A stretch of 18,499 bases of DNA from positions 1 to 18,499 of IMG/VR virus record IMGVR_UViG_2778261447_000005, one strand, 5' to 3'. Origin of the DNA: a virus. Its lineage: Duplodnaviria > Heunggongvirae > Uroviricota > Caudoviricetes. Below, in pieces: positions 9,243 through 17,174 of the stretch. A program made the position numbers and the translations under genes. Numbering within the stretch: the first letter of the stretch is position 1; every line of letters begins with the position of its first letter. The notes below the pieces were generated by a model, which was not told the DNA's origin, searched no databases, and saw nothing but the letters and a program-made list of their open reading frames with translations.

Positions 9243-10994
9243 ATGATTCAGGATACATTTGTTCGCCAGCGGGCACGCCAGCTGTACTGGCAGGGTTACC
9301 CTGTTGCGGAAATTTCCCGCCTTATGGGTATCAACCAGAACACGATCCATTCGTGGAAAAAACGCGACCAGTGGGATGAGACGCCCCCGGTTCAGCGTGT
9401 CACGCAGTCCATGGATGCGCGACTCATTCAGCTCACGGAAAAACAGAATAAAACAGGCGGGGACTTTAAGGAAATTGATTTGCTGACCCGTCAGCTTAAA
9501 AAGCTGCATGACGGTCTGCCGGATGAGACGGCAACAGGAAAGAAAGGCCGGGCGAAAAAACGCAAAAATCATTTCACGCCGGAACAGATCGCGGCGCTGC
9601 GGGAAAAAATTACCGACAGGCTGGCCGGACACCAGCGCAAATGGCTTGATGCTATCGGTGCCTGTGAGCGTGCCGGAATTACTGACAGGATGATCCTGAA
9701 ATCCCGCCAGATTGGGGCGACCTGGTATTTTGCGCAGGAAGCGCTGCTGATGGCGCTGCGTGACGATGTGGCACAACCTTACCAGCGTAACCAGATTTTT
9801 TTGTCTGCGTCTCGTCGTCAGGCGCTCCAGTTTAAAAGCATTATTCAGAAGGCTGCATCTGAAGTTGATGTGGAACTGAAAGGGGGCGATAAAGTCATCC
9901 TCTCCAACGGTGCAGAGCTGCATTTTCTCGGCACTTCTGCGGCCACCGCGCAAGCGTACACAGGGAATCTGTATTTTGATGAGTTTTTCTGGACGGGGCG
10001 TTTCGCAGAGCTGCGCAAGGTGGCTGCTGCTATGGCAACGCTGGATGGTTTGCGGTGTACCTATTTTTCCACGCCATCAAGTGAAACACATGAGGCGTAT
10101 GCATACTGGAACGGCGATCACTGGAATGAAGGGCTTCGTACTCATAAACGTCAGCATTTTGATGTGAGCTGGAATGCGCTTCATAACGGCCTTATCTGTC
10201 CTGACTATATCTGGCGGCAAATTGTGACGCTGGAAGATGTGGTCAGTCAGGGATGGACGTTAACCAACATTGACAAAATCCGGCGCAATAACACTGAAGA
10301 CGAGTTCCGCAATCTCTACATGTGTGAATTTGCTCGCGAAGGGGAATCGGCATTTAACCTGAATATCCTGATTGGCTGCGGTGTTGACGGATACGACGAG
10401 TGGCCGGACTGGAAGCCGTTTGCACCGCGTCCGATGGGGAACCGCCCTGTGTGGATTGGGTACGACGCCAACGGCAGTAGCGGGAACGGTGACAGCGGGG
10501 CGGTTGTCGTGGTGGTGCCGCCAGCCGTACCGGGCGGGCGTTTTCGCACCGTGGAGACGCGGCGGGTGCAGGGGCTGGAGTTTGAGGCGCAGGCGAAGGT
10601 GATTGAAGAGTTCACCTTTCGCTATAACGTTGAGCATATCGGTATTGACGTAACCGGCGGTCACGGGGATGCGGTGTATCAGATTGTGAAGCGCTTTTTT
10701 CCGGCAGCCATTCCCTACACCTTCACCCTGTCATCAAAGCGCACGCTGGTTCTGAAGATGCTGCAGCTCATGCGCGCCGGGCGGTGGGAGTACGACCGCA
10801 GCGAGCGCGAACTGGTGAGCGCCTTTAACGCGGTACGCAAAACAAAAACGCAGGCCGGATTTATCACCTACGAAACAGATCGCGCAAGAGGCGTAAGCCA
10901 TGGCGATCTTGCATGGGCCACCATGCTGGCCGTTATCAACGAACCTGTCGGCGGTGAACATGATGCCGCCCCCTTCAGTGTTACGGAGTTCTGA
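9243..10994 (+). CDS. P: Terminase large (ATPase) subunit gpP-like
   Basis: 583 aa; N-terminus with QLYWQGYPVAEISRLMGIN...HSWKKRDQWDE matches P2 gpP-type terminases; GAGGGGGAG RBS; divergent from O as in P2. Confidence 0.9.
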   Translation: MIQDTFVRQRARQLYWQGYPVAEISRLMGINQNTIHSWKKRDQWDETPPVQRVTQSMDARLIQLTEKQNKTGGDFKEIDLLTRQLKKLHDGLPDETATGKKGRAKKRKNHFTPEQIAALREKITDRLAGHQRKWLDAIGACERAGITDRMILKSRQIGATWYFAQEALLMALRDDVAQPYQRNQIFLSASRRQALQFKSIIQKAASEVDVELKGGDKVILSNGAELHFLGTSAATAQAYTGNLYFDEFFWTGRFAELRKVAAAMATLDGLRCTYFSTPSSETHEAYAYWNGDHWNEGLRTHKRQHFDVSWNALHNGLICPDYIWRQIVTLEDVVSQGWTLTNIDKIRRNNTEDEFRNLYMCEFAREGESAFNLNILIGCGVDGYDEWPDWKPFAPRPMGNRPVWIGYDANGSSGNGDSGAVVVVVPPAVPGGRFRTVETRRVQGLEFEAQAKVIEEFTFRYNVEHIGIDVTGGHGDAVYQIVKRFFPAAIPYTFTLSSKRTLVLKMLQLMRAGRWEYDRSERELVSAFNAVRKTKTQAGFITYETDRARGVSHGDLAWATMLAVINEPVGGEHDAAPFSVTEF

Positions 10995-12049
10995 TGAGCA
11001 GAAAAAATAAACAACGACGTACGAACGCCCGCGCAGCGCAGGGCAGCCTTGCGGATTCCCTGCGAAGCGACCCGACACTAAGTGCCTTCACGTTTGAAGG
11101 ACCTTACCGGCTGTCAGGGGCCGACCTGCTGGACAGCATGTACTGCGCCGACAACGGGCGGTGGTTTGAAACGCCCGTTGACTGGTACGGACTGGCACGG
11201 GCTGCCCGCCAGACGTCCTGGCACCAGTCGGCGCTCAGCTTCAAACGTAATGTGCTGCTGGGCTGCTATATTCCACATCCTCTGCTGTCCCGCCAGGAGT
11301 TCGCCGGGGTGGCGATGGACTGGTTTGTGTTCGGTAATGCCTGTCTTGAGCTGCGGCGCAACATGCTTGGCGAACCGCTGGCCCTGCGCCGGGCGCTGGC
11401 GAAATACATGCGACGTGGCAGCGATATGAAATCATGGTGGTATATACAGGAAGGACAGGAAGAGTACCGCTTTCGTGAGGGGACGATATGCCACCTGATG
11501 AATCCTGATATCAACCAGGAGATTTACGGGATGCCGGATTACCTGGGCGGCCTGCTGTCTGCCAGCCTGTCACATTCCGCCGATATCTTCCGCAAGCTCT
11601 ACTACGATAACGGCTCACACGCGGGCTGTATTGTCTACATCGGTGCGGCGCAGGTTGACCGTGAAAGCATGGAAAAACTGCGGGAAACACTGCAAAGCGC
11701 GCGTGGTGGCGGGGCGTTTAAAAATCTGCTCATCCACGCGGCGGGAGGTGGTAAGGATGGCGTACAGATTTTGCCGTTTCAGCAAATCACCGCAAAGGAT
11801 GAGTTCATGAACGTCAAGGCTGCATCGCGTGATGATGTGCTGTCCGTGCACCGTGTACCGCCGCAGCTGATGGGGGCCATGCCGGGTGAGAAGGGGTCAT
11901 TCGGGGATGTGGAGAAGGCAGCCCGTGTGTTTGCCATTAACGAACTGATGCCCGTCATGGAAGCAATGAAACACGTCAACGACTGGCTGGGCGAAGAGGT
12001 GATCCGTTTTAACCCTTACGCACTGTTAGACACCCAGCCCATATCCTGA
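10994..12049 (+). CDS. Q: Portal (capsid vertex) protein gpQ-like
   Basis: 351 aa; SAFTFEGP, NGRWFETPV, PDINQEIYGMPDYL, GKDGVQILPFQ and QLMGAMPGEKGSFGDVEKAARVF match P2 gpQ as I recall it; start overlaps P stop. Confidence 0.9.
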   Translation: MSRKNKQRRTNARAAQGSLADSLRSDPTLSAFTFEGPYRLSGADLLDSMYCADNGRWFETPVDWYGLARAARQTSWHQSALSFKRNVLLGCYIPHPLLSRQEFAGVAMDWFVFGNACLELRRNMLGEPLALRRALAKYMRRGSDMKSWWYIQEGQEEYRFREGTICHLMNPDINQEIYGMPDYLGGLLSASLSHSADIFRKLYYDNGSHAGCIVYIGAAQVDRESMEKLRETLQSARGGGAFKNLLIHAAGGGKDGVQILPFQQITAKDEFMNVKAASRDDVLSVHRVPPQLMGAMPGEKGSFGDVEKAARVFAINELMPVMEAMKHVNDWLGEEVIRFNPYALLDTQPIS

Positions 12050-12075
12050 CGCGCTTCGCTTGTCTGCTGCTTCGC

Positions 12076-12100
12076 CGGGGCATAAAAAATTTATGCCCCG
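12076..12100. terminator. Perfect 11-bp stem / 3-nt loop hairpin between convergent Q and the 12116 ORF
   Basis: cGGGGCATAAAaaaTTTATGCCCCg read directly; lies 27 nt after the Q stop and 16 nt after the convergent ORF stop. No flanking U-tract, so terminator function is inferred from position only. Confidence 0.45.
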
Positions 12101-12115
12101 ACTCTCCAGCTCTGC

Positions 12116-12619
12116 TTAACGAAGTGCTGATGGCGCTCGCTTTTTCAGGTGATTAGCGATGTGCTTTTTCATGTGCATAACAACATCGCCCCAGGCTTCT
12201 TCGCTGGGTTTATTGATAAATACGCGAACAGAAATATCGTCTTCCACCCGGACTCTCAGAGACACCCGTTCCGCATCTACTGAATATAATTCAAGTGCAA
12301 TAACCACGCTTACCGGGTAGCTGCTGTCAGATGACTTAACCCAGGTTCGCACGGCCATGCGGAAAATATTGTCTGGTGCAGATGCGATATTGTGGACTGA
12401 AAGAGGACTAAAATCCGCCGCTGTCTTACATGGCAAGCCTGTCTCCACGTAGCGGTGCAGGTCGCCATCATCGTCTTCCCAGTACATGGATGGAAGCCCC
12501 AGCCATTCTTCATAGAAATCAATCAGCCTTGCCGCTTCATCCCGCAAAATTTGAGCTGCCTCAGCGCGTTTTTCTTCAGCTTCACGATTGATCTGGCATA
12601 AATCATTAAAGTGGCTCAT
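12116..12619 (-). CDS. Hypothetical protein, unrecognised family (accessory/moron candidate); alternative in-frame start at 12826/12829 would give ~237 aa
   Basis: ATG 12619 is preceded by AAGAGGA at optimal spacing (MSHFNDLCQINREAEEKRAEAAQILRDEAARL..., 167 aa). The same frame stays open 70 codons further upstream (TTG-ATG at 12829/12826) but without an RBS. No resemblance to P2 structural or replication proteins that I can recall. Confidence 0.55.
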   Translation of the reverse strand: MSHFNDLCQINREAEEKRAEAAQILRDEAARLIDFYEEWLGLPSMYWEDDDGDLHRYVETGLPCKTAADFSPLSVHNIASAPDNIFRMAVRTWVKSSDSSYPVSVVIALELYSVDAERVSLRVRVEDDISVRVFINKPSEEAWGDVVMHMKKHIANHLKKRAPSALR

Positions 12620-13045
12620 GACATTATCCTCTTTTGAGTTGATGCCTGCCGCTATTCTGACTTTGCCCGGGTTCTCCTGCAAGCTGGTTATTCCTTCAGA
12701 TAATTTCACAACATCTCCAACCTTGTAGCCATCATCGCCGGGCGGATGCTTACGCAACCCCGCAACTCTGACGACATATTCTCGCTGCCTCAGTGCGATT
12801 TTGACGGCCTTATCTTTCACCCCCATCAAATCAAGCTTTTACGTCTTTTTTACGCTCAGCGTGAGAAATACAGCCATTCTGTTGTGTCGCTGCAACATCG
12901 TTCAGGGAATGCTATTTACCCCCTGAAACGCGGGCTGTTCCCCCGTCACCTGCGCGCAGAAAAAGGCCTTTTTTCGTGCACGCACGGATCCCCGACGGAT
13001 CCAGACGCCACACGGGCCGGAAGGGCAAAAAGTCGTTCAAAAAAA

Positions 13046-13072
13046 TTGTGCAAATTTGTGCACTATTGTGCA
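13046..13072. repeat. Three perfect direct repeats of TTGTGCA at exact 10-bp phasing
   Basis: aTTGTGCAaatTTGTGCActaTTGTGCAttg read directly (13046, 13056, 13066), immediately adjacent to the terminator hairpin, inside a ~280-bp non-coding stretch. Confidence 0.5.
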
Positions 13073-13080
13073 TTGAAATA

Positions 13081-13103
13081 AACGCCCTGGAGGAGGGCGT
13101 TTT
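13081..13103. terminator. Rho-independent terminator, probably bidirectional; ends the minus-strand A-linked operon
   Basis: AACGCCCTggaggAGGGCGTT (8-bp GC-rich stem, 5-nt loop) followed by TT on plus and by TTTATTTCAAT on minus; begins 7 nt after the stop of the 13110..13511 ORF. Confidence 0.65.
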
Positions 13104-13109
13104 GCTCAT

Positions 13110-13511
13110 CTATTTATAGCCTTGCCCCTTACTGGCCAGCGCCCTGATGGCAGGGCGTGCCAACACCATATTTTGGCAATGATGAATTGCCCGGCAAAAT
13201 TCATCTCTACCCATTGGATGCTCAACTGGCAATGTAAAATACAGGTTCCATGCATCGCCTAAAAGTTGGGCTATCTTTTGTTCTTCAGATGTCAGCAAGC
13301 GGTACTCCCCATCCTTGATGTAGTCACTTGTGCCATCGACCTGCTGTTCTGCAATGTGGAAAGCACCTATTGGTTTTGCTTCCAGCGATGCCAAAGCAAT
13401 CCGTGCCAGTTTTTCCGCTTCTTCGGCTGGCAGTACAACGTTGCTACCAGGTCCGTATGTTTCGCGCCACTGCCTGATTGTCAGTAGTCGCTCTTTGGTT
13501 ATAGTGGTCAT
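13110..13511 (-). CDS. Hypothetical protein (133 aa), last gene of A-linked cassette
   Basis: ATG 13511 overlaps the upstream stop (ATGA); GAGGAT RBS; ends just before the terminator. Sequence MTTITKERLLTIRQWRETYGPGSNVVLPAEEAEKLARIALASLEAK... not recognised. Confidence 0.55.
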   Translation of the reverse strand: MTTITKERLLTIRQWRETYGPGSNVVLPAEEAEKLARIALASLEAKPIGAFHIAEQQVDGTSDYIKDGEYRLLTSEEQKIAQLLGDAWNLYFTLPVEHPMGRDEFCRAIHHCQNMVLARPAIRALASKGQGYK

Positions 13512-13717
13512 TTGTTAATCCTCAAAACTTTATGCCCGGGCGCAAAAGCACGAGTTTTGTCTTTGCTTATTCGCCAGCCATCCTTACGCGCCTCTTTTGC
13601 ACAGCCAGTCCATGACGTACCGATATATTCACCGAAGTCTGGCGTTTGATATTTACCATTTGTACACTGGCGACAATCACAATAGAGATGCATGGTGTAA
13701 CTTGCGGCAATAGCCAT
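13508..13717 (-). CDS. Hypothetical small Cys-cluster protein (69 aa), possible zinc-binding
   Basis: ATG 13717 with AGGAG RBS; contains C-x-C-x2-C ... C (HLYCDCRQC...WTGC); stop overlaps the next start. Confidence 0.5.
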   Translation of the reverse strand: MAIAASYTMHLYCDCRQCTNGKYQTPDFGEYIGTSWTGCAKEARKDGWRISKDKTRAFAPGHKVLRINK

Positions 13718-13718
13718 A

Positions 13719-14033
13719 TCAGTCTCCTTTGATGCCAGTGTTTACAACCTGACAAGCCTCTTTGAGCACCCAGTCAACAGCGTCTTGCCATGCTCCGGTT
13801 TCGACTGGCGGATTCTCACGCTTTACCAGTTCATAGAAACGTACTGCTCTAACCAGTCCATCTGACGGTTTTACCTGTAGTGCAGCCTGAGCTATGCGGT
13901 ATACCTGGAGCATACAGGCGTCGTTGATATCCATTCCGAATGGAATATCTGATGACTGAGATTCCACATCTTCCAGCCTGGCAATTTCTTTACGTAAGAA
14001 GCCTTTCAGTTCCTGCTTCTGTTTCCTGTTCAT
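13719..14033 (-). CDS. Hypothetical protein (~104 aa)
   Basis: The track ORF 13719..14048 starts on a TTG; the first ATG at 14033 (MNRKQKQELKGFLRKEIARLEDVES...) has a GAAGGA RBS. Family not recognised. Confidence 0.5.
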   Translation of the reverse strand: MNRKQKQELKGFLRKEIARLEDVESQSSDIPFGMDINDACMLQVYRIAQAALQVKPSDGLVRAVRFYELVKRENPPVETGAWQDAVDWVLKEACQVVNTGIKGD

Positions 14034-14044
14034 ATATTTTTCCT

Positions 14045-14239
14045 TCAAAGTTCGGTTCGCTGACAGGGTTTCTCTTTACGGCAGACAATGACGCTTCCTT
14101 TGCTCGAGTCGGTGATTGTTACCGTGCCGTCATCACACTGGACAATGACAACGGTGTTGCTCTTTTTCGCTACGCAGTTCGGCGTGGCTGATTGTGCGAA
14201 TGGCGCGAAAAACAGCAGAAAAAGTAATATTCTGCTCAC
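14045..14239 (-). CDS. Hypothetical small secreted protein (64 aa precursor, ~45 aa mature, 4 Cys)
   Basis: GTG start at 14239 overlapping the upstream stop (GTGA), GGGAGG 8 nt upstream. Product MSRILLFLLFFAPFAQS|ATPNCVAKKSNTVVIVQCDDGTVTITDSSKGSVIVCRKEKPCQRTEL has a classic type-I signal peptide with an AQS-type cleavage site. The track's longer 123-aa version would overlap the upstream gene out of frame. Confidence 0.5.
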   Translation of the reverse strand: MSRILLFLLFFAPFAQSATPNCVAKKSNTVVIVQCDDGTVTITDSSKGSVIVCRKEKPCQRTEL

Positions 14240-14667
14240 TGTTGTTTCCTCCCGTTCTGTGCTGGTCTGGCGAATGAATTGCGTTGTGGTGAAAAGACCA
14301 TTCGCGCCAGCGCGGCCTTGTGATTGACTGTGTTCAGTGTTCTGGCCAGTCCGCCGTTGTGCCTGCGTGTCCGCTCTTCGTGATATCTCTGCATGATTTT
14401 CCCGGCAGGCGTGCACGGCTCCGGTTCCTCCGGCGAACGGCGCGGACGAATGACGACAGTCCAGCTATGGCTCTCGCTGCCCGGCCGCCTGTTGAGTATG
14501 TCGGCGATGGTGGTCTCCGTGGTGCGATCGGGGCTGACTATCGTGATTTCCAGCTCGTCGCCCGGTTGTGGCCTTGTGGCAGGCCTGAACAGTGTCAGCA
14601 CCGGCATACGCTGGCGCATGATGGCCTCAAACTGTGGGCGCTGCATGGTGCAGCAAAATCGCGTCAT
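14236..14667 (-). CDS. Hypothetical Arg-rich protein (143 aa), translationally coupled to A
   Basis: ATG 14667 overlaps the A stop (ATGA) and is preceded by GGAGG; at the position of P2 orf91 but longer, and I do not recognise the sequence. Confidence 0.5.
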   Translation of the reverse strand: MTRFCCTMQRPQFEAIMRQRMPVLTLFRPATRPQPGDELEITIVSPDRTTETTIADILNRRPGSESHSWTVVIRPRRSPEEPEPCTPAGKIMQRYHEERTRRHNGGLARTLNTVNHKAALARMVFSPQRNSFARPAQNGRKQQ

Positions 14668-17174
14668 GCTCCCGCCTCCACTGGCTGCTCTGTGATGATG
14701 TGACGGGCTGACTCATCCCAGTACGCTGTTCCCCCGTTATCCAGACGCACACGGGCACCGTTACGCACGGAGATGATGGCCGCGTCAGGCAACTGCACAC
14801 CCAGCGCATCAAGTTCGCGGGCGATTTGCGTGTCCGTCGCGGTATCCGCAGGCACGACAATCCCCACCCTTACAGGGGTGTCAGATGCCGGTGTGGTGTC
14901 GTTTTGTCCGGTTTTTGCGCCCGACGGCTGATTTTTAATCTGATTACGCAGTTTTCTCCGATCGCCCCTGCTTAACGTATTCAGCCAGCTTTCCAGGTTC
15001 TCTTCGGGAAGCGTCAGTCGTCCGGGGTCCTGCCTGTTTTCTGGTCCGTGATTGTCTGTTTTTTCATCCCGGGGACAGTTATTGCCACGAGTCCAAGGGG
15101 CGACGGGGTCGCCCTGAAGGTCAAAACCCTCGCCCGTGCGGTTGTCTGGTGTTGTTTCTTTTTTAACCAGTTTCCACTCGTCCGGATGGGTGCATATGGT
15201 GTACCGCTCTCCGAGCGACGGGGCGCAGATTCCGTAGATACGTTGAGGGAATTCACCGTAGTCGTTGGCTTCGTCTGCGGTTTCGTATGCGGTGCGGACC
15301 AGATACTGGTTGCGCGGAATGAGCACACCACCCTGTTTCATGATGTAGGTGGCAAAACATCCCACATCTGCGGCAGCCATAATGGCGTCAATATCGTCAT
15401 GATCGAGGTGCTTCGGTGATGCCGGGTTGCGCTCCATCTGGCTTGCAAGGCGGCGGAGTTCACGCCATACCTGGCGGGGCGGAATGCCGAAAAACTGGAA
15501 CTGACGGATGCGGTGAAGGCTTGCCCAGGCAATGGCGTTCTCCACGGTTTCCGCCATGGTTTTCCCGGATTCCTCATCAACGTAAGGTTTTCCGGTTTTC
15601 GGATCATTGTTGTGGAAAGCGCTGGCGTCCAGGTTCTTACCGATATAGGTTGCGATATAGCTTGCCGGTGTGCCTTTTTCCGGGTCTATCTTCTCGCATT
15701 TAAAGCGCGGTGAAATATCGTCCCCCAGTTCGTGGCGATCTGATTTAATTGCTGCTTCGCGCATAATTTCGATGATGCGCTCTGCGTTCTCCGGGGAAGT
15801 GAATACCAGCATATGCCAGTGTGGCGTGCCGTCATGGTGTGGCTCAGCGGTTCGCACGCCGTACCAGCCCAGCCCCTCTTTTTTTATTTTTTTTCTTACG
15901 GCTGCGAAGAAGTCGTAAACCAGATAATCACTGGCATCTCGTACTGTGGCACCGTTGTATTTCGGGTTCAGGCTGCCGTTCTCGTTCACGCTGTGAAAGC
16001 GGGAAGGGGTGGTTACTGTGATGAAGAATGCGACGTCAGCCCGTAATTCGGCCACCATCTCCATCCCTCTGACGCAGACCATCATTTCATTGCGGCGGTT
16101 GCGTGGATTACCCAGGCCAGCCCAGTACACGTCCTCCAGACTCAGGCGCTCGCCGTCTTCGTTTTCAATATCCCAGCTTTTGAGAAAGTCACGGGTGCGC
16201 TGGCGCTTCTCGCGGAACTCCAGTAGTGACTCATGGCTGATATAGGGGGATTGTTTACGTGACACTCTGCCGGCGGCGCGCAGTAACTCCTCCCGCCAGA
16301 GATCGGCGACGTGGCGTAACTGGTTGTTCCACCAGGTCGCGCAGGTGATGCGCAGTACCGCACCCGGAACCCGTTCAGGGTCCGGCGGTGTGCGTCGGTT
16401 GTGCCTGATTTCGAGTTCCGGCCAGTATGGCGGGACCACGCCCAGAATTAAGGCTGTGCGTGCCACCTTCTGGTAGGCCAGCAGCCAGATAACAGGGCTG
16501 TCATTATCCTTGCCTGTCCGTTCAAGAACTTCATCACATATGCGTTCAAATTCTGCGGCGAATGCCTGGGCTGTCAGTGTGGCGATGCGCTGGATTTCGT
16601 CACGGGTGAGTTGCGGCAGTGTGAGCAGTTCTTCAAGGCGATGGCGCACGACGGTGGTTTTGAATGCCGGCGTTGCAAAGCGGTCGTTAACCCTTTCAAT
16701 ACGTTTCAGGCGCGCACGCAGTCCACGGCGAACGAAATTATCGGCCACGTATGCGCTGTTGTTTTTTACACCTTCACTGCGGGCACTTTGCTGTTTCCGG
16801 TTCAGTCGTGCCAGATCACGGATCAACACACTGGCAAGAAACGAGGGCAGGGTGCGAAGTTCGGCTATCGCCTCCGATACCGCCGTTGGCGGATTTTCGC
16901 GTCTGTGTCGTGCCAGCTTATCCAGCCTTATCTGCCGCTCTTCGTCCCGGTGAAGGTGTGAATTAATTTGCTTACCTTTGTCCGTGGTTGTCAGGAAGGC
17001 CACGGTTTCTTCATCCAGCCGGGCCTCAGTGCGAATGTCTTCGGTGAGGTAGTCACGGATTGCCCGTTGTAATGCGGTTGGCTTCTGCGGTAATGCTCTG
17101 CCGAATGTCTCAGGATCAATAACCGGCAGCGGGGCGTTCCACGGGTACGCCAGGTGCGTGTGGTGATGGCTCAT
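14664..17174 (-). CDS. A: Replication initiation protein gpA-like (HUH rolling-circle endonuclease)
   Basis: 836 aa; YPWNAP near the N-terminus, HUH motif in EPHHDGTPHWHMLVF, catalytic-Tyr motif SYIATYIGKN; all match P2 gpA as I recall it. GGGGAG RBS. Confidence 0.9.
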   Translation of the reverse strand: MSHHHTHLAYPWNAPLPVIDPETFGRALPQKPTALQRAIRDYLTEDIRTEARLDEETVAFLTTTDKGKQINSHLHRDEERQIRLDKLARHRRENPPTAVSEAIAELRTLPSFLASVLIRDLARLNRKQQSARSEGVKNNSAYVADNFVRRGLRARLKRIERVNDRFATPAFKTTVVRHRLEELLTLPQLTRDEIQRIATLTAQAFAAEFERICDEVLERTGKDNDSPVIWLLAYQKVARTALILGVVPPYWPELEIRHNRRTPPDPERVPGAVLRITCATWWNNQLRHVADLWREELLRAAGRVSRKQSPYISHESLLEFREKRQRTRDFLKSWDIENEDGERLSLEDVYWAGLGNPRNRRNEMMVCVRGMEMVAELRADVAFFITVTTPSRFHSVNENGSLNPKYNGATVRDASDYLVYDFFAAVRKKIKKEGLGWYGVRTAEPHHDGTPHWHMLVFTSPENAERIIEIMREAAIKSDRHELGDDISPRFKCEKIDPEKGTPASYIATYIGKNLDASAFHNNDPKTGKPYVDEESGKTMAETVENAIAWASLHRIRQFQFFGIPPRQVWRELRRLASQMERNPASPKHLDHDDIDAIMAAADVGCFATYIMKQGGVLIPRNQYLVRTAYETADEANDYGEFPQRIYGICAPSLGERYTICTHPDEWKLVKKETTPDNRTGEGFDLQGDPVAPWTRGNNCPRDEKTDNHGPENRQDPGRLTLPEENLESWLNTLSRGDRRKLRNQIKNQPSGAKTGQNDTTPASDTPVRVGIVVPADTATDTQIARELDALGVQLPDAAIISVRNGARVRLDNGGTAYWDESARHIITEQPVEAGA

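What the first reader, a model, noticed from the sequence alone, without database searches (positions are those of the whole stretch)
12116..12829. Stand-alone unrecognised gene next to Q with two possible in-frame starts (237-aa and 167-aa forms)
This gene is convergent with Q, has its own upstream non-coding region and is not coupled to the A cassette. A strong RBS (AAGAGGA) precedes an internal ATG at 12619 (167 aa), yet the frame is open for 70 more codons upstream (TTG-ATG at 12829/12826, no RBS). The upstream segment contains a motif (YKVGDVVKLSEG) reminiscent of AbrB/MazE-like swapped-hairpin domains, which I cannot verify here. It could be a single-gene defence or abortive-infection candidate, possibly expressed as long and short isoforms.
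Basis: partly seen in the sequence, partly recalled or inferred. Interest (0 to 1): 0.65.

Follow-up and report, generated by a model that had tools for sequence, protein, structure and literature searches.

The report
Uncharacterised cos-side cargo gene, P2-like prophage
The gene is real but only its 167-residue form is genuine: it is a small self-contained cargo gene of unknown function in the known variable (defence) hotspot next to the packaging site of a P2-like E. coli prophage, and the proposed longer 237-residue form is an artefact of a one-base difference.

Summary
The ORF 12116-12829 (-) exists, and so do the two in-frame starts and the strong RBS before ATG 12619. Only the 167-aa product (12619-12119) is supported.

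- **Homologs:** all of them (164-175 aa; E. coli, Salmonella, Edwardsiella, Erwinia, Serratia) and PHROG 5091 begin at the MSHF methionine.
- **Upstream 70 codons:** bases 12696-12829 are non-coding cos-flanking phage backbone, found in about 1,100 E. coli genomes that mostly lack the gene.
- **Upstream start:** TTG/ATG at 12829/12826 is in frame only because this lineage has G5 where relatives have G4 (ATG GGG TGA).
- **Substitutions:** the extension evolves near-neutrally (dN/dS 0.70-0.85) against 0.12-0.26 for the core.
- **Structure:** AlphaFold gives the extension pLDDT <50, and there is no AbrB/MazE signal.
- **Promoter:** a conserved TTGCNN-N17-CANAAT motif lies inside the "extension".

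The true unit is a 583-bp moron (12695-12113) made of promoter, SD and gene. It sits between cos and portal gene Q and ends at a hairpin shared with Q.

The protein is soluble, mildly acidic, confidently modelled as α+β, and has no significant sequence or fold relative. A family member is already listed, untested, as "system #54" of the P2 gpA-gpQ hotspot (Rousset 2022). A defence or exclusion role is plausible but unproven.

The parts
12116..12619 (-). True coding sequence: 167 aa (MSHFNDL...APSALR) plus stop TAA 12118-12116.
   Evidence: PHROG 5091 covers residues 1-166 of this form against profile positions 2-163 of 164. All homologs start here. dN/dS is 0.12-0.26. AF2 gives pLDDT 86 and pTM 0.81.
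12627..12633 (-). Shine-Dalgarno AAGAGGA, 7 nt before ATG 12619.
   Evidence: Read directly. SD-like purine runs sit at the same place in all homologous loci.
12654..12682 (-). Predicted sigma-70-type promoter: -35 TTGCAG (12682-12677), 17-nt spacer, -10 CAGAAT (12659-12654). Predicted transcript start is near 12647.
   Evidence: TTGCNN-N17-CANAAT ends 33-39 nt before the start codon in 7 lineages. Spacer and upstream flank are only about 29-30% identical pairwise. The promoter is inferred, not mapped, and is too weak for the consensus scan (7 of 12 hexamer positions match on direct reading; not listed).
12113..12695 (-). The 583-bp cargo (moron) holding promoter, SD and gene. It replaces 9 bp (YTGATACAG) of 'empty' P88-like backbones.
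   Evidence: Alignment of the window with phage P88 and with E. coli M9 prophage NZ_CP010196, which lack the gene.
12074..12102 (.). 13-bp-stem hairpin (GTCGGGGCATAAA/TTTATGCCCCGGC) between the two convergent stop codons. It belongs to the backbone and is presumably a bidirectional terminator shared with Q.
   Evidence: RNAfold gives -30.7 kcal/mol on the gene strand and -26.4 on the Q strand for the 69-74-nt stretches. It is present in the empty backbones. P2 annotates a putative terminator tQ at the equivalent place. There is no U-tract, so terminator function is inferred.
12696..12829 (-). Spurious N-terminal extension: 45 codons of backbone non-coding DNA. The remaining 25 codons of the 70-codon extension (12695-12620) are the gene's own promoter and leader, inside the cargo.
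   Evidence: backbone segment in about 1,100 genomes, mostly unannotated. (dN/dS 0.70-0.85; mismatches 7/10/9 by codon position). (pLDDT <50). (open upstream codons 2-38 in other lineages).
12820..12824 (-). G5 run that puts TTG 12829 / ATG 12826 in frame. Relatives have G4, giving ATG GGG TGA.
   Evidence: RefSeq start calls differ accordingly: 236 aa, 197 aa, 167 aa.
12696..12925 (-). Conserved cos-flanking backbone segment with no supported gene.
   Evidence: About 83% identical in about 1,100 of 5,426 complete E. coli genomes, usually with no annotated feature.
12932..12957 (-). Putative cos cleavage region GCGCGCA-GGTGACGGGGGAACAGCCC. The 19-mer 12950-12932 matches the P2 cohesive end at 13 of 19 positions.
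   Evidence: Conserved with 0-5 mismatches upstream of the gene in 8 lineages. The 13/19 figure is my own alignment to the P2 cosL sequence printed (feature annotated). The assignment is inferred by analogy; the ends were not mapped.
13046..13072 (-). Three TGCACAA repeats, analogous to the TGCAT repeats on the right-end side of P2 cos.
   Evidence: A role in terminase binding is inferred.
13076..13101 (-). Intrinsic-terminator-like hairpin AACGCCCT-CCTCC-AGGGCGTT followed by TATTT. It ends the A-operon ORFs before cos and insulates the target gene from upstream transcription.
   Evidence: Read directly. Function inferred.

Best explanation
**Anatomy (shown or strongly supported).** The window is a P2-like (P88/Xuanwuvirus-type) E. 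coli prophage. Between its cos site and the 3' end of portal gene Q it carries a 583-bp moron (12695-12113). The moron holds a weak but conserved sigma-70-type promoter, a strong SD and a 167-aa ORF, and it abuts a backbone hairpin shared with Q. The 237-aa 'long form' is an annotation artefact. A one-base expansion of a G-run (G5 instead of G4) fuses 45 codons of non-coding cos-flanking backbone, plus the gene's own promoter and leader, in frame to the real start.

**Function (inferred).** The product is a soluble, mildly acidic (pI 5.4) alpha+beta protein. It has a long acidic N-terminal helix, an antiparallel sheet and a basic C-terminal helix. It has no enzymatic motif, no membrane segment and no partner gene. 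I think it most likely is expressed from the prophage and acts by stoichiometric binding to another protein, or possibly nucleic acid, in phage-phage conflict. That would make it a single-gene exclusion/defence factor in the manner of P2 Tin, without homology to it.

**My confidence.** About 0.9 for the anatomy and about 0.35 for the defence/exclusion role.
For: **Start site and extent**
- PHROG 5091 begins at the internal Met.
- About 25 homolog clusters are all 164-175 aa and begin MSHF/MGHF.
- The upstream frame is open for only 2-38 codons elsewhere.
- 12696-12925 is backbone DNA present without the gene in P88, in NZ_CP010196 and in about 1,100 E. coli genomes.
- G4 relatives with a core 0-1 nt different lose the ATG frame.
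- dN/dS is 0.70-0.85 in the extension and 0.12-0.26 in the core.
- Residues 1-69 of the long form have pLDDT <50.
- The promoter motif is conserved in 7 lineages while its spacer is at random-level identity.

**Moron and hotspot status**
- The gene is present or absent in otherwise collinear backbones.
- It lies between gpA and gpQ next to cos, the published P2 defence hotspot and 'moron position 1' (PMC9122126; PMC3573123).
- A 54%-identical member is listed there as system #54, with 77 occurrences and no Pfam domain.
- Identical copies sit beside different A-side cargo, either RelE-type TA modules or small ORFs.
- In this prophage no other hotspot ORF matches Pfam or PADLOC.

**Non-enzymatic binder**
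- No Pfam, NCBIfam or PADLOC hit.
- No hydrophobic segment (maximum KD19 1.15) and a polarised charge distribution.
Against: - No experiment or database links the family to any phenotype. It was catalogued but does not appear in the held text of the table of tested systems.
- PADLOC 2023 has no model for it.
- Its divergence tracks that of the portal gene (86/83, 75/74, 68/73, 54-58/69-75 % identity). It keeps its place near cos across genera. This looks more like a long-resident accessory phage gene than a rapidly swapped defence cassette.
- It is rare: about 43 of 5,426 complete E. coli genomes.
- It is absent from 50,697 GenBank phage records.
- The promoter is weak by consensus (7 of 12 positions on my reading, not listed), and one lineage (L026) lacks it.
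- Fold matches are below the level that supports homology, so 'binder, not enzyme' rests on absence of evidence.
Confidence: 0.5

Rival explanations
1. First reader's model. The gene makes a 237-aa form with an AbrB/MazE-like N-terminal domain and a 167-aa form, used as regulated isoforms of a defence or abortive-infection protein.
For: - The frame is open from 12829 in this lineage.
- RefSeq annotates a 236-aa protein in the identical genome.
- 236- and 234-aa entries are seen on several hundred contigs.
Against: - No SD precedes 12826/12829.
- All other lineages start at the internal Met.
- G4 relatives break the frame, and PGAP then or 167 aa.
- The segment is backbone DNA that occurs without the gene.
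- Substitution is near-neutral.
- There is no Pfam hit, and pLDDT is 27-39.
- The conserved promoter lies inside the extension.
Confidence: 0.03
2. The protein serves the phage itself rather than protecting the lysogen. It could be a counter-defence (anti-restriction or anti-Abi) factor. It could also modulate events at cos or the portal: packaging, competition with P4-type satellites, or competition with co-resident P2-like prophages that share cos.
For: - It stays close to cos and Q, and its divergence parallels the portal's.
- It is under purifying selection.
- It is small and acidic with no enzymatic motif, as many anti-defence proteins are.
- One genome carries two different family members in two P2-like prophages.
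Against: - It has its own sigma-70-type promoter, transcribed against the late P-Q operon, with no Ogr-type late-promoter element that I could see.
- Most related phages do without it, including P88 and about 1,100 E. coli backbones.
- In Serratia-type relatives it lies on the other side of cos, behind its own terminator, so the position relative to cos and Q is not fixed.
- Acidity is modest (pI 5.4), unlike DNA mimics.
Confidence: 0.25
3. It is a lysogenic-conversion gene that affects host physiology or fitness and is unrelated to phage conflict.
For: - The same hotspot also carries non-defence cargo such as partition systems and cytolethal distending toxin (PMC9122126).
- 'Moron position 2' of a P2-like prophage carries the fitness gene neaT (PMC3573123).
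Against: - There is no signal peptide or membrane segment.
- There is no resemblance to any metabolic, regulatory or virulence family.
- The family is confined to P2-like prophages.
Confidence: 0.1
4. It is not a functional gene but a decaying remnant or a chance ORF.
For: - The function is unknown.
- The gene is rare in complete genomes.
Against: - dN/dS is 0.12-0.26 with saturated dS.
- Length is conserved at 164-175 aa down to 32% identity.
- The AF2 model is confident.
- The SD and promoter are conserved.
Confidence: 0.02

Closest known systems
Rousset et al. 2022 (PMC9122126) Table S5B, P2-hotspot 'system #54' (single protein MSHFRDLYLANKK..., no Pfam, 77 occurrences)
   Same: - Same protein family: it corresponds to the 54%-identical P0013 lineage.
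- Same length (167 aa).
- Same locus between gpA and gpQ next to cos.
- The window's own genome, NZ_CP033635, is in their Table S5A as an all-hypothetical arrangement.
   Different: - The window's copy is a different lineage.
- No family member appears in the held text of their table of tested systems, so nothing about function carries over.
PHROG 5091 (unknown function)
   Same: Full-length match: E 3e-52, residues 1-166 of the 167-aa form against profile positions 2-163 of 164.
   Different: The PHROG carries no annotation. No record in the GenBank phage collection encodes a member, so its members presumably come from prophages.
P2 tin and old (the 'TO region' morons between A and cos)
   Same: - Non-essential cargo in the same A-cos-Q interval.
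- Own promoter: P2 annotates old-tin transcript starts.
- From my own knowledge, not tested here: Tin is expressed from the prophage and is a single protein without a recognisable enzymatic domain that excludes T-even phages.
   Different: - No sequence relationship to Tin (hhalign probability 0.2).
- tin and old lie on the A side of cos and point away from Q. This gene lies between cos and Q in most lineages.
- Anti-phage activity is unproven.
FP dimerisation domain (PI31, Fbxo7) and actin-capping protein subunits
   Different: - Foldseek finds nothing at E<0.1 in the PDB or in BFVD.
- This is a resemblance of architecture only, not evidence of homology.
AbrB/MazE (SpoVT-AbrB) swapped-hairpin domain
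   Same: Only a loose look-alike of the string YKVGDVVKLSEG in the upstream frame.
   Different: - No Pfam hit at E<=1.
- The segment is non-coding backbone.
- It is modelled as disordered.

Membership tests
PHROG 5091 | Significant full-length match to the family profile | tested here: met
   E 3.1e-52, 177.6 bits, residues 1-166 against profile positions 2-163 of 164.
Moron (Hendrix/Juhala sense: extra gene with its own signals between backbone genes) | Present in some and absent from other otherwise collinear phage genomes, with clean junctions | tested here: met
   583 bp (12695-12113) stand in place of 9 bp in P88 and NZ_CP010196.
Moron (Hendrix/Juhala sense) | Own promoter | tested here: inconclusive
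   TTGCNN-N17-CANAAT is conserved 33-39 nt upstream of the ATG in 7 lineages, with a spacer at random-level identity. No transcript mapping exists, the L026 lineage lacks it, and the consensus scan did not list it.
Moron (Hendrix/Juhala sense) | Own terminator | tested here: inconclusive
   A strong hairpin (12074-12102, about -30 kcal/mol) follows the stop codon. It belongs to the backbone and lacks a U-tract.
P2-like gpA-gpQ cos-proximal hotspot cargo (Rousset 2022) | Located between replication gene A and portal gene Q, adjacent to cos | tested here: met
   A is at 14664-17174 and Q at 10994-12049. The cos-like block is at 12932-13072. The hotspot definition is in PMC9122126.
Anti-phage defence system | Match to a known or candidate defence protein model | tested here: not met
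   PADLOC-DB v2.0.0 gives 0 families at E<=1.
Anti-phage defence system | Reduces plating or burst of a challenging phage | not testable with these tools
   This needs phage challenge of a strain carrying the cassette. No family member appears in the held text of the tested-systems table of PMC9122126.
AbrB/MazE (SpoVT-AbrB) domain in the upstream 70 codons | Profile match, conservation as protein, and a foldable swapped-hairpin | tested here: not met
   No Pfam family at E<=1. dN/dS is 0.70-0.85 and the motif varies. pLDDT is 27-39.
Type II toxin-antitoxin module | Adjacent co-transcribed partner gene | tested here: not met
   The cassette holds a single ORF. The neighbours are cos and the convergent Q. 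The TA modules seen in some loci lie on the other side of cos and vary independently.
P2 Tin | Sequence or profile homology to Tin | tested here: not met
   hhalign probability 0.2%, 6 aligned columns.

The most novel reading that the evidence does not exclude
The 167-aa protein is a new single-protein anti-phage (or anti-satellite) factor. It would have a fold with no solved or catalogued relative, be expressed from a conserved promoter beside the cos site of P2-like prophages, and act by binding a phage protein. It might bind a component shared through cos-dependent packaging, which would explain its long-term residence next to cos and the portal gene.
Probability: 0.3. Interest if true: 0.55.

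Novelty: new member of a known kind. Interest (0 to 1): 0.28.

Why it matters
**Practical result.** This is an annotation correction. RefSeq gives this one gene as 236, 197 or 167 aa in near-identical prophages because of a single-base G-run polymorphism. Only the 167-aa form is supported.

**Biological result.** The gene is one more uncharacterised single-gene cargo of the well-known P2 cos-proximal hotspot. [quoted passage not shown] It is therefore a cheap candidate to test: 583 bp, native promoter included.

If it were active, it would add a small defence protein with no recognisable domain and no close structural relative. It would also show that the Q side of cos is used as a cargo slot. 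As it stands, nothing here is surprising to a specialist.

Tried and rejected
- **Family libraries.** Pfam, NCBIfam and PADLOC scans of both forms and of 14 family members gave nothing consistent.
- **Solved structures by sequence.** The profile search gave only chance hits: a de novo designed protein and the MS2 coat protein.
- **Exhaustive search of 1.84 billion representatives.** It returned only 7 hits. One, a 1,449-aa repeat protein (P0020), I rejected as a repeat artefact.
- **Profile iteration.** A broader alignment found no fusions or new contexts.
- **Genome and phage scans.** The genome-contig scan added only Erwinia plus one 28-residue match, which I took to be spurious. tblastn against GenBank phages found nothing.
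- **P2 cos 19-mer.** It was not found with <=3 mismatches. A direct alignment of the P2 cos junction to the window was uninformative. cos was therefore assigned from conservation and architecture.
- **Rfam.** The only hit was a sub-threshold gyrA match on the terminator hairpin.
- **PD-(D/E)xK nuclease reading of 'PD' at residues 82-83.** Rejected, because the following strand has no conserved (D/E)xK (alignment).
- **Ogr-type late promoter (TGT-N12-ACA near -55).** Looked for by eye and not found.
- **Homology to P2 Tin.** Rejected.
- **Literature.** Searches by accession numbers found nothing.

Full report
**1. Context**

The window is a P2-like prophage of E. coli. It is 100% identical over the region to NZ_CP033635 and 17 other listed complete genomes. 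Its closest sequenced phages are P88/Xuanwuvirus types.

RefSeq annotates the following:
- terminase large subunit, 9243-10994 (+)
- portal protein Q, 10994-12049 (+)
- a hypothetical protein on the finding's ORF
- replication endonuclease A, 14664-17174 (-)

Read on the minus strand, the order is: A operon with small ORFs, a terminator-like hairpin (13101-13076), a cos-like block, the target gene, then the convergent Q and P. This is the circular permutation of the P2 map.

**2. The observation**

The ORF 12829->12116 is real as an open frame of 237 codons. TTG is at 12829, ATG at 12826, the in-frame TAA at 12841-12839, and an internal ATG at 12619 is preceded by AAGAGGA.

**3. Which start is real**

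Seven independent lines of evidence point to 12619.

- *Family profile.* PHROG 5091 aligns from its first profile position to residue 70 of the long form (E 3.5e-52).
- *Homologs.* Three searches of 5.8 billion proteins and one exhaustive search of 1.84 billion representatives found a small family of about 25 clusters. Members are 164-175 aa and come from E. coli, Salmonella, Edwardsiella, Erwinia and Serratia. All begin MSHF/MGHF at the position of M71. In their loci the frame upstream of the start is open for only 2, 16, 34 or 38 codons.
- *Origin of the extension.* The segment 12925-12696 includes the first 45 codons of the long form. It recurs at about 83% identity in about 1,100 of 5,426 complete E. 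coli genomes, almost always without an annotated feature. In phage P88 and in prophage NZ_CP010196 it is followed, after 9 bp, directly by the hairpin and the portal stop. The extension is therefore backbone DNA flanking cos.
- *The G-run.* The ATG at 12826 lies in a G-run. The window has ATGGGGGTG. P88, NZ_CP010196, NZ_CP182378 and three relatives whose coding core differs by 0-1 nt all have ATGGGGTGA, which is a stop after two codons. RefSeq start calls follow this noise: 236 aa here, 197 aa in the G4 relatives, and 167 aa in the 87% relative.
- *Substitution pattern.* Between the window and the empty backbones, the 41 comparable codons differ at codon positions 1/2/3 in 7/10/9 places, with dN/dS 0.70-0.85. 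The 167-codon core has dN/dS 0.12-0.26. Close variants change the supposed motif (YKVGD to YRAGD) while the core stays identical.
- *Structure prediction.* AlphaFold2 on the 237-aa form gives pLDDT 27-39 for residues 1-69, while the core folds as in the short model. Pfam finds no AbrB/MazE or any other family at E<=1.
- *Promoter.* A promoter-like motif lies inside the extension (next section).

**4. The unit**

Alignment with empty backbones defines a 583-bp insertion, 12695-12113. The gene's upstream regions were taken from seven lineages, down to 32% protein identity. All seven contain TTGCNN-N17-CANAAT ending 33-39 nt before the start codon.

Pairwise identity is 75% and 87% in the two hexamers. 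It is 29-30% in the spacer and in the 20 nt upstream. The hexamer figures are inflated because nine positions define the search pattern. The evidence lies in its recurrence at a fixed place; my estimate of the chance expectation is about 2e-3 per 150-nt region.

In the window the -35 is 12682-12677 and the -10 is 12659-12654, which predicts a transcript start near 12647 and a leader of about 28 nt carrying the SD. The promoter is weak by consensus: 7 of 12 hexamer positions match on my reading, and the scan did not list it. One lineage (L026) has lost it through a deletion. It is inferred, not mapped.

Downstream, a 13-bp-stem hairpin (12102-12074) sits between the convergent stop codons. RNAfold gives about -30 kcal/mol for the surrounding 69-nt stretch. 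The hairpin belongs to the backbone, and P2 has tQ at the same place.

Upstream lies the conserved block 13072-12932. It holds TGCACAA x3, then GTGCGTGCAC, then GCGCGCA followed by GGTGACGGGGGAACAGCCC. The block is conserved in eight lineages. It has the same layout as P2 cos: TGCAT repeats, then the 19-nt cohesive end, which the window's 19-mer matches at 13 of 19 positions, then Q. I infer that it is cos.

In most lineages the gene thus occupies the very left end of the virion DNA, between cos and Q. In Serratia-type relatives (34-38% identity) it lies on the other side of a cos-like region, behind its own terminator. There an unrelated 125-aa gene takes the Q side.

**5. The protein**

- *Properties.* It has 167 aa, a mass of 19.1 kDa and pI 5.4, with no hydrophobic segment.
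- *Model.* The AF2 model is confident (pLDDT 86, pTM 0.81). It has helix 2-40, a small hairpin, a four-stranded antiparallel sheet (85-134), and helix 139-161.
- *Charge.* The N-terminal half is acidic (net -11) and the C-terminal helix is basic.
- *Conservation.* Positions invariant across 16 sequences down to 32% identity are D83, T92, D128, V133, K151, H153, I154, R161 and P163.

**6. Distribution and linkage**

- The gene is always in P2-like prophages near the portal gene.
- Its identity to the window copy tracks the portal's: 86/83, 75/74, 68/73 and 54-58/69-75 %.
- The cargo on the A side of cos differs even between loci with identical copies of the gene. It includes small ORFs, RelE-type, HigBA-like and TumE modules, and ParM/StbA.
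- In complete E. coli genomes I count about 30 window-type, 11 P0013-type and 2 P0009-type copies.
- None of 50,697 GenBank phage records encodes it.

**7. What is already known**

The interval between gpA and gpQ next to cos is the published defence hotspot of P2-like phages (PMC9122126; PMC13586616). It is also 'moron position 1' (PMC3573123).

Rousset et al. list the window's own genome as an all-hypothetical arrangement. They also list a 54%-identical family member as 'system #54': no Pfam domain and 77 occurrences. No family member appears in the held text of their table of tested systems. PADLOC 2023 has no model for the family.

**8. Interpretation**

*Shown.* The genuine product is the 167-aa protein. 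The long form is an artefact. The gene is a self-contained cargo cassette in a known variable slot and is under purifying selection.

*Inferred.* Expression comes from its own weak sigma-70-type promoter, probably in the lysogen. The product acts as a non-enzymatic binding protein.

*Most likely role.* My preferred role is prophage-encoded exclusion or defence, in the manner of Tin, at a probability of about 0.35. The main rival, at about 0.25, is a function for the phage itself (counter-defence, or cos/packaging/satellite competition). That rival is favoured by the gene's long co-residence with the portal gene and cos. Host-fitness conversion (about 0.1) and non-function (about 0.02) are less likely.

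**9. Verdict**

This is an ordinary, already catalogued but uncharacterised hotspot gene. The isoform and AbrB-like ideas are refuted. Its value lies in an annotation fix and in providing a compact candidate for a defence screen.

Noticed in passing
window 12932-13072 (-): A conserved cos-like block. It holds three TGCACAA repeats (13072-13046), GTGCGTGCAC, and GCGCGCA followed by GGTGACGGGGGAACAGCCC, which matches the P2 cohesive end at 13 of 19 positions. It is conserved with 0-5 mismatches in eight lineages. Phage record LR595891 starts inside the block, at the window-13027 equivalent.
   Followed up: partly
window 12820-12824; L027-L029; L026: A one-base G-run polymorphism (G5 or G4) makes RefSeq/PGAP call the same gene as 236, 197 or 167 aa in near-identical prophages. 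The protein collection holds the 236-aa and 167-aa forms on 908 and 829 contigs respectively.
   Followed up: yes
window 12696-12823 (-); P88 locus L002 3713-3841: The cos-flanking backbone carries a 42-codon open frame (VKGKAVKIALRR...VVKLSD*) that is annotated as a hypothetical protein in phage P88. Against the window it shows dN/dS 0.70-0.85 and evenly spread mismatches, so it is probably not a gene. Even so, the DNA is about 83% conserved in about 1,100 E. coli genomes, which may reflect a role in packaging.
   Followed up: partly
window 13110-14667 (-): The five ORFs between A and cos (133, 69, 109, 64 and 143 aa) have no Pfam or PADLOC match, so this prophage has no recognisable defence system in its hotspot. 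RefSeq marks only 13377-13511 of the 133-aa ORF as a pseudogene fragment ('missing C-terminus').
   Followed up: partly
L030 5001-6443 and L033 5001-6442 (Serratia-type prophages): Distant family members (34-38% identity) lie on the A side of a cos-like region: the gene, then terminator GGCCGCCATTGCGCGGCC-T7, then TGCA repeats. An unrelated 123-125-aa gene without Pfam hits occupies the slot between cos and the portal gene.
   Followed up: partly
NZ_CP135671.1 (E. coli TUM9803), hits H45 and H115: One genome carries two different lineages of the family in separate places: one 99.9% identical to the window, the other 91% identical to the P0009 type. The cos-region query matched this record in four places.
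   Followed up: no
phage collection versus PHROG 5091: tblastn finds no family member in 50,697 GenBank phage records, although a PHROG family exists and IMG/VR holds nine predicted viral contigs with the gene. All known copies therefore appear to be in prophages, not in isolated phages.
   Followed up: no
window 12055-12108 (-): A sub-threshold Rfam hit to 'gyrA RNA' (22 bits against a gathering score of 45, E 0.014) coincides with the hairpin between the gene and Q. It is most likely a chance match to a GC-rich stem.
   Followed up: no
L026 (NZ_CP182378) 2560-2697: The 87%-identical homolog has a different upstream junction. About 110 bp are missing, including the conserved promoter hexamers, so the backbone joins directly to the leader. 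This copy may be silent or use another promoter.
   Followed up: no
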